Positions 18,001 through 22,500 of a stretch of DNA of 64,000 nucleotides are shown here, piece by piece (position 1 is the stretch's first letter; every line of letters begins with the position of its first letter). This stretch comes from Raja brachyura (lineage: Eukaryota), in NCBI GenBank assembly GCA_963514005.1, contig OY740795.1:124001-188000 (forward strand), given 5' to 3'. Position numbers: made by a program.

Positions 18001-19411
18001 CCATGATCACAGTCAATGCCGGTGCTGGCACGAAGGGCCGAAAGGCCTACTCCTGCACCTATTGTATAATGTCTATTGTTGCATGAAGACTATTTTTGAT
18101 AAGTCATTAAGAACAGCCATAATGATTAGTGAGGAATACGGGCAACACACTGGGCCTGGTATGGTAACGAACGGAGATCAACATGATGATTTCAATATGT
18201 TTACACTTGATACATGATTCAGTAGTGTAAATTTGTTGCGTTGCACCTCAGCGCACAATAATTAGAACATAGAACAGTGCAACAGACTTATCCGCCCACA
18301 ATGTCCGTGTCGAACATGATGTCCAGTTAAACTGATTATCTCTGCTGGCATCTCATGAATATGCCCCCATTCCCCGGATATCTTGTGACTGTCTAAAGAC
18401 CGCTATTACTTTCAACGGATCAAAGGTAACCACACAGAGTCGTGTGGATGGGAAATTGTTTTTTTCATCTAGTACCTAGACCGATAAATGTACTCGATAC
18501 AGCACGTGTGGGGAAACTGTTTGGCGTAATTCTGCCGAGGAGATGGTGTGTTTCACGTGGAACACTATTGGAATATTGTAGATGGTGTGGATCGCTCTAG
18601 AAGTTCGCGATCGCGGTTGCATTAGACACACTGTAGATTTCTCACACAACCGCGCCATCTGGTAGCCTCTCGAAAGTGGTCCATCGTACGGTGTTTGGAC
18701 CCTCTATTTCTCGGCAACAGTGTGGGCGCCATGGCGCAGTAATATGTCGCAGCGTCCGAAAGGTGTATCCTGGAGATATTTAACGGGAAGGTCTTACTCT
18801 CCTCGTGTAAAACGGCAAAGAATCTTTTGGAAATATCTGGATCTGGTTGGGATAACCCATCGCGGAATCCCTTCAGCACGTATCTCGCTGCATGGCCGCG
18901 ATACTCGATGTACCAGAAGAAGTTGTTAGAAGAGAACTTTGTGGAGTAGTTGCAGTTTAACGTTACGTCCAGCCCTTCCTCGGCCCTCAGCGCAGCCAGA
19001 CTCTGGGACACTGACTCCTCGCAGACTCCTGTAACAATGAATACGACATGCAATCACTCCAGGAAAGAATCTGACTCCCTTGACGGTCACAAACACCACT
19101 TAAACGCCAACTCACTTGCCCGAACGAGAATAAATATCAGGAAGGAGGATAGGGTAAACATAACTCCTAATTGGGACAACGCGCTAAAAAAATGGAGCGG
19201 CCTTAGTTTATTTCCGTCGTGGATTCTGTGCGAATGAAACGGTCAACAGCGTTTTCATCATTTAATGCGCAAGGGGGCGTTTATTTTAGTTACCGTTGTT
19301 GATTGGCCAATTTCCCATACCGAAGGATATTTTTGCACATTTGAAAACGCGCTGTTGTTTCTAACGTCCGTTATTTCTCTTCCTTCTCCCGTCTCTTTCT
19401 CTCTCTTTCTC

Positions 19412-19506
<95 letters not shown>

Positions 19507-22500
19507 CTGCCCCCCACCGTTCCACTACACTTTCCTTTTCGCCTTCGCCACTTTCTTTCCCTCTCGGGCTCTCTGATGTTCGCGCTGTCTCTCGGCTCAT
19601 TTAGCTTTCTTTCCACCAATCCATAACATACCATATCGATCTAGCTCTCTTTCTCTTCATTATCTTTTCACGTATGTATGTAAGTATCTATCTCCCATTT
19701 CCCTCTTGCACTTTTCCCCTTTCTCTCTCTCTCGCGTTCATTCGCCGGAAAATCCATGTGAATTCTGCACCTGCTTTTATACTAAAGATTTTTGACCGCA
19801 GTCACCGCCTCGGGGAAAGTTTCGTGGGAAGAAGGTCACCCCTCGGCATTATCCATCTGTCTGGCGGCGTAATCTGTAACCGCCGGCTGAGATACACACC
19901 TCCGCGAAGTAGAGGTACCACAACGCACAGGCATTAGAAGATGGAACAGTACAACACAGGGGTAGACCTTTACAAGAATAAAAAGATGGAACTCCACAAC
20001 ACAGGGATAGGCCTTTCGGCCTACAATGTCTAATCCGACCATGATACCAAGTTAAACCAATCACCTTTATCTGCATCTCATCAATATGCCGTCATCATTT
20101 GCATATCCTGTGTCCATCTATAGACGTTGTTGGATTCAACAAATCCAATTGATCTTCAGAGGCGTGTCGCTGGAAGATGAGGGAATAAATGTTGTTAGAT
20201 CTAATACCATTGCGATAATTAAATAAATAAATACATACATAAATAGATAAATAGATAAATAAGTGGACTGCTCGGTGCGGACTCGGTGGGCCGAAGGGCC
20301 AGTTTCCGCGCTGTATCTCTACTCTACACTGAACTGAACTAAATTAAATATCAAGGGCAGGAAAGGCACTGCTGGAGGATGTCGCTTAGAATATGATGCA
20401 GTTGACATAGAATATGCTGCTGATATTGCGGATGTTACGGAGCGGTTGGTGGTTCGGGATCCCTGCCGCGTAAGATGTACTTCACATTACTTGCGCAACA
20501 GCGCCCCCTGGGACGACGGATGTCTAGCGCGTGGTTTTTTGTGCGAAGCCTCTATCTCTCTCCAACAGTGTGGATTCATGGCGCAGTAATATGTCGCAGA
20601 GTCCGCGAGAATTATCCTGGAGATATTTAAAGGAAATGTCTTACGTCCTTTGTGCAAATAAGCAGAAATTCTGTCAGAAAAATCTGGAGACGGAGAGGCC
20701 AACCCATTGCTGACACCCTTCAGCACATATATTGGCGCATCGCCGGGATACTGGATGTACCAGAACAAAGTTACACTGACGGCTGTGGAATAGTTGCAGG
20801 TTAGTGTTACGTCCTGTCCTTCCTCAACCATCAGTGCACCCGGACTCTGGTAGACGGACTCTGAGTCCGAGTCCGGGTCTGGTAGAGCACAATTAGAAAG
20901 AAGGATCGGAGGGAGAACATGACTGCTGATCCGAAAAACGGGCTGCAATAATGGGGCGCTCTCAGTCTCTTTGCGTCGTCGGCTGTGAAAGATTGGAAAC
21001 CTATTTCTGGGGGTTCAACACATTTTGTGCGGAAAGGGGTAGTTCCCTCGCGCGCGGTTAGCGATTGGTTGACGATTGACGAGCGTTTCTTTGCTAATGT
21101 CTGTCATAATCAACGTCAGATACCCAAAAATCTATGCCGTAGGTCTGTCATGAAGAAAACGTCTGTAATATTTTCTCTCTCGCAATACCGCANNNNNNNN
21201 NNNNNNNNNNNNNNNNNNNNNNNNNNNNNNNNNNNNNNNNNNNNNNNNNNNNNNNNNNNNNNNNNNNNNNNNNNNNNNNNNNNNNNNNNNNNNNNNNNNN
21301 NNNNNNNNNNNNNNNNNNNNNNNNNNNNNNNNNNNNNNNNNNNNNNNNNNNNNNNNNNNNNNNNNNNNNNNNNNNNNNNNNNNNNNNNNNNNTTCGCAGA
21401 TCTACCCAGATCGATTCCACATCCTCCAAGCTAATGTCCTTCCTTTTTATTGCGTTAATCTCTAACCAGCAACGCTGCTCCACTTCATTTTCCTTTCTGT
21501 CTATCCCTCCTGAATATTGAATATCCCTGGATGGTCAGCTCCCAGCCTTGCTCAGCCTGGAGTCATGTCACCGTGATCCCAACTATATCATATTCATTAA
21601 TAACTATCTGTACATTCAACTCATCCACCTTATTACGAATGCTCGTTGCATTGAGAAACCAAGCCTTCAGGCTTGTTTTTACGACACTCTTACCCCTTAT
21701 GCAATTATGTTGAAAAGTGGCACTTTTTGATTTTTGCCCTGGATTTTCCTGCCTGCCACTTCTACTTTTCATCTTGCTACCTATTGCTTCTACCCTCATC
21801 TTGCATCCCTCTGTCTCTCTGCTCATGCTCCCATCCCCCTGCCACGTTAGTTTAAATCCTCCCTGACAGCACTAGCAAACACGCTCCCAAGGACATTGGT
21901 TCCATTCAAGCCCAGGTGCAGACCGTTCTGTTCGTACTGGTCCCACCTCCCCCAGAACTGATTCCAATGCCCGGGAAATTTGAATCCCTCCCCTTTGCGC
22001 CATTTTTTAAGCCACGTATTCATCTGCAATATCCTCCTATTTCTACTGTGACCAGCACGTGGAACTGGTAGGAATCCAGAGGTTATTACCTTTGAGGTCC
22101 TACTTTTACGTTTATCTCTTAGCTCCCTAAATTCGCCTTGAAGGACCTCATCCCGTTTTTTACCTATATCGTTGGTGCCAATGTGCACCACGACAGCTGG
22201 CTGTTCACCCACCCCTTCCAGAATGTTCTGCAGCCGTTCAGTGACATCCCTGACCCTTGCATCAGGGAGGCAACATACCATCCTGGACTCTCGTTTGCGG
22301 CCGCAGAAACGCCTATCTATTCCCCTTACTTATGAATCCCCTATTACAATAGCCCTTCCACACTTCTTTCTCCCCTCATGTGCCGCAGAGCCACCAATGG
22401 TGCCATGAACTTGGCTGCTGCTGCCTTCCCCTGATGAGCCATCCCCCCCAACAGTATCCAAAATAGTATATCTGTTTAGGAGGGAGATGACCGCAGGGGA

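What the first reader, a model, noticed from the sequence alone, without database searches (positions are those of the whole stretch)
18652..20514. Strong CTCF motifs ~20 bp downstream of the RSS in V6 and V7
Seen: CTACCAGATGGCGC (18665-18652) and GTCCCAGGGGGCGC (20514-20501), both in V transcriptional orientation and about 20 bp past the nonamer position, although the surrounding flanks have diverged. Known: mouse proximal IgH VH genes (e.g. VH81X) carry CTCF elements just downstream of the RSS that stall cohesin-driven RAG scanning, whereas mouse Tcra V CTCF sites are mostly promoter-associated. Inference: an IgH-like RSS-CTCF architecture in an elasmobranch TCR locus, suggesting loop-extrusion control of V usage is ancestral to jawed vertebrates.
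Basis: partly seen in the sequence, partly recalled or inferred. Interest (0 to 1): 0.7.

Follow-up and report, generated by a model that had tools for sequence, protein, structure and literature searches.

The report
Partial CTCF-like motifs beside two V RSSs
Two related T-cell-receptor V gene segments in a skate-like genome carry an incomplete CTCF-type motif about 20 bases past their recombination signals, but the matches are weaker than claimed, stem from one ancestral copy and are absent from the other five V segments.

Summary
The letters, coordinates, strand and spacing are as reported. The 14-mers start 20 nt (V6) and 19 nt (V7) after the nonamer, on the V sense strand.

"Strong" does not hold. 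Its consensus equals a printed one. Both sites have T where the core needs its second C, the base read by zinc finger 7. Only the 3' eleven bases match well.

V6 and V7 are paralogues (63.5% amino-acid identity). Their flanks still align at 58-62% for 100 nt past the motif, so this is one inherited event. Its local conservation is within chance. The other 5 of 7 V segments have nothing comparable.

V6 has a degenerate nonamer. V7 lacks its leader intron and is out of frame.

The window is batoid-like and the V segments are TCR-alpha-like.

Verdict: V6 is a candidate weak CTCF site. An IgH-like architecture is not shown.

The parts
18652..18665 (-). V6 CTCF-like 14-mer CTACCAGATGGCGC. The 19-nt matrix window is 18650-18668.
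   Evidence: One mismatch to the recalled IUPAC core. 11.62 bits, p 1.9e-5. T at the second C of the core. It also contains AGATGGCG, a YY1-like string, and the E-box CAGATG (both motifs recalled).
20501..20514 (-). V7 CTCF-like 14-mer GTCCCAGGGGGCGC
   Evidence: Three mismatches, all in the 5' triplet. Full matrix score 0.27 bits. The 3' 11-mer CCAGGGGGCGC is the maximum possible for matrix positions 7-17 (17.28 bits).
18686..18724 (-). V6 23-RSS: heptamer CACACTG, 23-nt spacer, degenerate nonamer ACACCGTAC
   Evidence: MAFFT instead places a 5-nt gap here relative to V7. Under that alignment my own reading of the sequence (no tool call) gives a nonamer-like CCAAACACC after a 19-nt spacer. 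Either way the RSS looks weak.
20534..20572 (-). V7 23-RSS: heptamer CACACTG, 23-nt spacer, nonamer ACAAAAAAC
18727..19028 (-). V6 V exon (exon 2). The leader exon is 19116-19161, with GT/AG intron boundaries read from the sequence.
   Evidence: V-set, E 2e-12; TCR alpha V best match. The two exons were not joined for any search.
20574..20861 (-). V7 V region. The homologous leader ATG is at 20918-20920, in another frame, and there is no leader intron.
   Evidence: V-set, E 2.2e-14; V6 intron columns absent in V7.
18537..18651 (-). V6 flank 3' of the motif, still homologous to the V7 flank 20385-20500
   Evidence: 31/50 and 29/50 identical columns, then decaying to 16/50.

Best explanation
The two strings are one inherited sequence. 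The common ancestor of the V6/V7 subfamily carried an incomplete CTCF-like core about 20 nt past its 23-RSS, and both copies kept it after duplication. The 3' two-thirds of the core (CCAG-R-K-GGCGC) is intact. The 5' CC is missing in both: T sits at the second C in both copies, so it was probably already T in the ancestor (inference by parsimony).

Most likely this is at best a low-affinity, low-occupancy site. It is not part of an IgH-like system in which RSS-adjacent CTCF elements control V usage. Nothing of the kind recurs at the other five V segments, and the conservation between the two copies is what neutral decay of paralogous flanks gives.

Shown: letters, spacing, strand, motif scores, paralogy, absence at V1-V5.
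Inferred: weak or no binding, no role in V choice.
For: 1. Motif quality. V6 scores 11.62 bits and V7 0.27 bits out of a 27.3 maximum (matrix recalled, consensus equal to the printed TGGCCACCAGGGGGCGCTA). 4 hits of at least 11.62 bits occur in the window against 2.4 expected (Poisson P 0.21).
2. A printed 14-nt core is CCNNNAGGGGGCGC, read by fingers 7 to 3, with position 2 recognised by finger 7 (passages). V6 has CT and V7 has GT at those two positions.
3. The mouse work kept only CBEs with FIMO MA0139.1 motif score >13 plus ChIP peaks. Neither site reaches 13 here.
4. Paralogy. V6 and V7 are 63.5% identical in amino acids. Their flanks align at 31/50 and 29/50 past the motif.
5. Conservation is not exceptional. 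P(>=9 of 11 identical) is 0.07-0.15 at the flank's identity. A 16-column window with 13 matches is reached in 68-75% of simulated neutral flanks. 9 of 275 eleven-column windows reach 9 matches, and 5 of those lie away from the motif.
6. 0 of the 5 other V segments has a hit within 100 nt of its RSS. Best sense score is 0.42 bits and best antisense -1.65.
7. No excess of CTCF-like hits in the V cluster: 6 observed against 3.8 expected, P 0.18.
8. High CpG content around the motif is shared by all seven V units (o/e 0.86-1.44 against a window median of 0.65). The motif's retained CpGs therefore say nothing special.
Against: 1. Position. A hit as good as V6's within 40 nt of any of 7 RSSs on the sense strand has chance 0.005. 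Within 100 nt on either strand it is 0.026. The spacing is exactly that of mouse VH CBEs ('within 20 bp').
2. On the 3' eleven positions alone, V7 is the best possible match (p 1.1e-7, 0.014 expected in the window). V6 is the second best in 64 kb (0.35 expected). This sub-motif was chosen after seeing the sites.
3. The two differences between the copies fall on the two degenerate positions of the motif (A/G and T/G) and use the tolerated bases.
4. If the ancestor had a perfect 3' domain, neutral decay keeps both copies at V6's level or better in only 0.3-1.8% of simulations. That figure is conditional and post hoc.
5. A 2026 preprint reports that a short motif lacking the vertebrate 5' domain is bound by all the CTCF orthologues it tested (passages).
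6. A single matrix predicts CTCF binding imperfectly (passages).
Confidence: 0.55

Rival explanations
1. The V6 site, and perhaps the V7 site, is a real RSS-adjacent CTCF-binding element confined to this V subfamily. Bound CTCF, with its motif on the V sense strand, would stall cohesin extruding from the J side. That would hold the neighbouring weak RSS near the recombination centre, as at mouse VH5-2. Or, since no further V lies in the 43 kb beyond V7, it would mark the edge of the V cluster.
For: Positional chance of 0.003-0.03 for the V6 hit. Spacing and orientation match mouse VH CBEs. The 3' domain is perfect or near perfect in both copies. Substitutions are limited to tolerated positions. 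V6's nonamer is poor, and in mouse it is the weak proximal VH RSSs that rely on CBEs. Loop-extrusion signatures are already reported for little skate. No V was found beyond 21 kb by tblastn. The best full-matrix hit in the window, 8631-8649 on the plus strand at 13.26 bits, is convergent with it.
Against: T at the finger-7 cytosine in both copies. V7 scores 0.27 bits. Both fall below the >13 criterion. The motif is absent from 5 of 7 V segments. The conserved block (alignment columns 103-118) is shifted 3' of the expected footprint, so it includes GTTG but not the 5' triplet. V7 looks like a pseudogene and V6's RSS may be too degenerate to rearrange. J and C are not in the window, so convergence with a recombination centre is untested.
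Confidence: 0.3
2. The shared block CCAG..GGCGC.GTTG, or each copy separately, is a site for another factor. V6 reads AGATGGCG (YY1-like) and CAGATG (E-box). V7 reads TCCCAGGGG (EBF-like half-palindrome).
For: The strings are in the sequence. The conserved block extends 3' beyond the CTCF core. E2A sites are described as weak extrusion impediments in the mouse V-kappa locus (passage).
Against: All three alternative motifs are recalled from memory and were not scanned with matrices. Each fits only one of the two copies, so none explains the shared part. There is no recurrence at other V segments.
Confidence: 0.1

Closest known systems
RSS-associated CTCF-binding elements of mouse D-proximal VH segments (VH5-2/VH81X type)
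   Same: Lies about 20 nt past a V 23-RSS, with the motif on the V sense strand, next to an RSS that looks weak (V6). [quoted passage not shown] They are convergent with IGCR1 CBE1.
   Different: The core lacks the CC read by finger 7. Scores are 11.6 and 0.3 bits against the >13 used for mouse CBEs. Only one V subfamily carries it (2 of 7 V segments). It is in a TCR-alpha-like locus rather than IgH. Occupancy and effect on usage are unknown.
CTCF sites of the mouse Tcra/Tcrd V array
   Same: Same kind of locus. In mouse, 129 of 144 sites point toward J-C, which is the orientation expected here if J-C lies at lower coordinates.
   Different: Mouse sites are mostly upstream of V promoters or intergenic (Table 2). 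Here the candidate lies past the RSS. The promoter regions in this window have only weak hits: 10621-10639 at 9.5 bits and 19505-19523 at 9.2 bits.
Mouse Tcrb V segments with CTCF near the RSS
   Same: A TCR locus in which a few V segments (2) have CTCF near the RSS (Table 2). The arrangement is therefore not unique to IgH.
   Different: Only a table entry was seen. No sequence or spacing was compared.

Membership tests
RSS-associated CTCF-binding element (mouse proximal VH type) | CTCF core motif at the strength used to call CBEs (FIMO MA0139.1 score >13) | tested here: not met
   V6 11.62 bits, V7 0.27 bits. V7's is.
RSS-associated CTCF-binding element (mouse proximal VH type) | Intact CC at core positions 1-2 (position 2 is read by zinc finger 7) | tested here: not met
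   V6 has CT and V7 has GT.
RSS-associated CTCF-binding element (mouse proximal VH type) | Within about 20 bp of the V RSS | tested here: met
   The 14-mers start 20 nt (V6) and 19 nt (V7) after the nonamer. The best-scoring 19-nt matrix window starts at offset +17 in V6, and at +15 in V7 as printed one base out of register, so +16 corrected.
RSS-associated CTCF-binding element (mouse proximal VH type) | Motif oriented toward the (D)J recombination centre | tested here: inconclusive
   The motif is on the V sense strand. No J or C was found in the window, so the position of the recombination centre is assumed.
RSS-associated CTCF-binding element (mouse proximal VH type) | Recurs at many V segments of the domain | tested here: not met
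   2 of 7 V segments, both of one subfamily. The other 5 score at most 0.42 bits within 100 nt. Only this 64-kb window could be examined.
RSS-associated CTCF-binding element (mouse proximal VH type) | CTCF and cohesin occupancy in lymphocyte progenitors, and an effect on V usage | not testable with these tools
   Needs ChIP-seq or CUT&Tag, Hi-C and repertoire data from skate thymus.
TCR alpha/delta-type V gene segment | V-set domain most similar to TCR alpha V, with YYC and a 23-RSS | tested here: met
   Pfam V-set E 2e-12 (V6) and 2.2e-14 (V7). For V6, the best PDB matches are TCR alpha chains. Both have 23-nt spacers. Caveats: V6's nonamer is degenerate, V7's leader is out of frame, and V7 was not compared with PDB.

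The most novel reading that the evidence does not exclude
The V6/V7 subfamily of a skate TCR alpha/delta-like locus carries a real, J-ward oriented CTCF element 20 nt past the RSS. It would work through a '5'-less' form of the motif (intact finger 3-6 contacts, no finger 7 CC). That would be the earliest-branching example of IgH-type RSS-CBE coupling, found in a TCR locus and beside a weak RSS.
Probability: 0.25. Interest if true: 0.65.

Novelty: not a real feature. Interest (0 to 1): 0.3.

Why it matters
If CTCF really sat next to V RSSs in a cartilaginous fish, CBE-assisted RAG scanning would date to the base of jawed vertebrates. It would also show that the arrangement is not an IgH speciality.

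The sequence in this window does not carry that weight. It offers one inherited, incomplete motif in two compromised V segments. Its value is as a cheap, precise target: two 14-mers to check in any skate thymus CTCF dataset.

Tried and rejected
- V6 exon 2 against the 5.8-billion-protein set gave no hit at E<=0.001, so the V subfamily could not be named or followed to other species.
Orthologous skate flanks therefore stayed unchecked.
- Jain et al. 2018 (PMC6026039) is not held. Its content is known here only through citing passages and a reference-list entry.
- The 15-letter IUPAC consensus I recalled is printed in none of the searched papers.
- A search for CTCF together with RSS and shark, skate or cartilaginous TCR terms listed no paper on this arrangement (listing only). 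The 2025 elasmobranch antigen-receptor paper has 0 occurrences of 'loop extrusion'.
- A crude regex scan for J segments found nothing convincing: 4 candidates, none with a plausible J peptide and RSS.
- Rejected: the motif as part of a dispersed repeat. The shared 11-mer occurs only at these two places.
- Rejected: promoter-type (Tcra-like) CTCF sites as a consistent feature. The hits near V2, V4 and V6 are weak (7.9-9.5 bits) and lie on different strands.
- Rejected: CpG retention as evidence of constraint. It is general to all V units.

Full report
**What is in the window.**
tblastn with the V6, V7 and V3 V-region translations finds exactly seven V segments, all below 21 kb. By the position of the YYC codons they are:
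- V1 at 2623 on the plus strand.
- V2 10202, V3 11620, V4 15345, V5 16679, V6 18744 and V7 20591 on the minus strand.

V3, V5, V6 and V7 were scanned against Pfam and are V-set domains. V6 exon 2 matches TCR alpha V domains best among solved structures (E 3.5e-16). It had no hit in the large protein set. The V6 leader and V exon were not joined for any search, and the exon 2 query began one base inside the acceptor.

Beyond V7 there are LINE reverse-transcriptase fragments and two intronless GPR139-like receptor ORFs, both hitting Pfam 7tm_1. The ORF at 32107-33075 has its best named relatives in skates: Amblyraja radiata at 80% and Leucoraja erinacea at 79% identity. 'Elasmobranch TCR V cluster' is therefore a fair description. 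The species was not determined.

**The observation.**
- V6 has heptamer CACACTG (18724-18718), a 23-nt spacer and nonamer ACACCGTAC (18694-18686). The 14-mer follows after 20 nt.
- V7 has CACACTG (20572-20566), a 23-nt spacer and ACAAAAAAC (20542-20534). The 14-mer follows after 19 nt.

**How good are the motifs?**
Three measures were used.
1. *A recalled IUPAC core, CCASYAGRKGGCRS.*
   - V6 has one mismatch. It is the only site in 64 kb with 1 mismatch or fewer, but 0.87 are expected and 56 of 100 shuffles had at least one.
   - V7 has three mismatches, like 92 sites in the window (95.6 expected).
   - Its consensus equals the printed TGGCCACCAGGGGGCGCTA (one passage).
   - V6 scores 11.62 of 27.3 bits (p 1.9e-5). 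It is fourth of 19 hits at p<=1e-4 (12.7 expected).
   - V7 scores 0.27 bits, matched or beaten by 13% of random 103-nt windows.
3. *A printed 14-nt core, CCNNNAGGGGGCGC, 'recognized by fingers 7 to 3' with position 2 read by finger 7 (passages).*
   - V6 begins CT and V7 begins GT.
   - Both therefore lack that cytosine, and both have T there. By parsimony the ancestor had T too (inference).

The mouse Igh work kept CBEs only with FIMO MA0139.1 motif score >13 plus ChIP peaks. Neither site reaches 13 with my matrix. 'Strong' is not justified.

- Taken alone, the 3' eleven positions are striking. V7's CCAGGGGGCGC is the maximum possible (p 1.1e-7, 0.014 expected in the window). V6's CCAGATGGCGC is the second best in 64 kb (0.35 expected).
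- The shared pattern CCAGRKGGCGC occurs only at these two places (2 against 0.07 expected).
- The two differences between the copies sit on the two degenerate motif positions and use the tolerated bases.
- A hit of V6's full-matrix quality within 40 nt of one of seven RSSs on the sense strand has chance about 0.005. Within 100 nt on either strand it is 0.026.
- The offset equals the mouse 'within 20 bp'.
- A 2026 preprint reports a short motif lacking the vertebrate 5' domain that all its tested CTCF orthologues bind. It also notes that loop-extrusion signatures were already seen in little skate (passages).

The sub-motif and the shared pattern were both chosen after seeing the sites, so their p-values are not tests.

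**One event, not two.**
- V6 and V7 are paralogues: 63.5% amino-acid identity and 76% mean column identity over the gene.
- Their 3' flanks still align. Identity is 10/23 between nonamer and motif, 9/11 in the motif, then 31/50, 29/50, 22/50 and 16/50.
- At 55-62% background identity, 9 or more of 11 matches has probability 0.07-0.15.
- 9 of 275 eleven-column windows reach 9 matches, and 5 of them lie away from the motif.
- The one 16-column window with 13 matches is the motif's own. Such a maximum arises in 68-75% of simulated neutral flanks.
- The conserved block runs from CCAG to GTTG. It is shifted 3' of a CTCF footprint and excludes the 5' triplet.
- Against this: if the ancestor had a perfect 3' domain, both copies keep V6's level or better in only 0.3-1.8% of neutral simulations. 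That result is conditional and post hoc.

**No pattern across the V segments.**
- V1 to V5 have no match within 100 nt of their RSSs. Best sense scores are -7.0, -2.8, -1.6, -1.6 and 0.4 bits. The best antisense score is -1.65.
- CTCF-like hits are not enriched in the V cluster: 6 against 3.8 expected, P 0.18.
- Hits near promoters are weak and inconsistent in strand.

**State of the two genes.**
- V6 has an open V exon, and GT/AG intron boundaries were read from the sequence. Its nonamer matches the canonical one (recalled) at 4 of 9 positions. Alternatively, by the MAFFT gap, it has lost 5 nt of spacer.
- V7 has a good nonamer. It lacks the columns of V6's leader intron, and its ATG (20918-20920) is out of frame with the V exon, stopping at 20831.

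As assembled, neither is a clean functional segment. In mouse it is weak RSSs that depend on CBEs, so V6's state fits either reading.

**Verdict.**
- Most likely (0.55): an inherited, incomplete CTCF-like sequence with weak or no binding. It is not an IgH-like architecture.
- A real subfamily-specific weak CBE or cluster-edge element remains possible (0.3).
- Another factor's site is possible (0.1).
- The remaining 0.05 is left for explanations not considered here.

**What stayed unchecked.**
- Orthologous loci in other skates, since no eukaryotic DNA collection was available.
- The rest of the locus.
- The true JASPAR counts.
- Jain et al. 2018, which is not held.
- Any occupancy data.
- The gap at 21193-21392, which cuts V7's upstream region and was left alone.

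For every paper cited I saw passages only, found with the find function. Searches are search listings.

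Noticed in passing
window 20831-20920 (minus strand): V7 has no leader intron. The columns of V6's intron are absent. Its homologous ATG (20918-20920) reads in another frame and stops at 20831. As assembled, V7 is probably a pseudogene, unless there is a 1-nt assembly error.
   Followed up: partly
window 18686-18717 (minus strand): The V6 nonamer ACACCGTAC is degenerate. MAFFT instead infers a 5-nt deletion relative to V7. Reading the sequence under that alignment (no tool call) gives a better nonamer-like CCAAACACC after a 19-nt spacer.
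   Followed up: partly
window 16621-16659 and 10185-10444 (minus strand): V5 has lost the CAC of its heptamer (AACGGAG) and has nonamer ACTGAAACT, although its ORF is open. V2 is split over two frames in tblastn, which indicates a frameshift. V2-V4 use the unusual heptamer CACGGAG.
   Followed up: no
window 2344-2681 (plus strand): V1 is inverted relative to V2-V7. It has a canonical CACAGTG heptamer and ACAAAAACA after a 22-nt spacer. It would have to join by inversion if J-C lies to the left.
   Followed up: no
window 10001-12200, 15201-15800, 16401-17000, 18401-19800, 20401-21200: All V units (promoter, exons, RSS flank) keep CpG at o/e about 0.8-1.6, against a window median of 0.65 (top tenth is 1.09 or more). 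This suggests germline hypomethylation or recent homogenisation of V genes.
   Followed up: partly
window 32083-35686 and 57055-60919: A duplication about 25 kb apart, 86% identical. Each copy carries an intronless GPR139-like receptor ORF (32107-33075 and 57079-58083, minus strand). These are the first non-TCR genes beyond V7.
   Followed up: partly
window 8631-8649 (plus strand): The best full-matrix CTCF-like hit in the window (AATCCACAGGAGGGCGCTG, 13.26 bits, p 8e-6). It lies between V1 and V2 and is convergent with the V6 site 10 kb away.
   Followed up: no
window 19392-19502: A (TC)n/(GA)n microsatellite of 55.5 copies, about 230-340 nt upstream of the V6 start codon. A 9.2-bit CTCF-like hit lies at its edge (19505-19523).
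   Followed up: no
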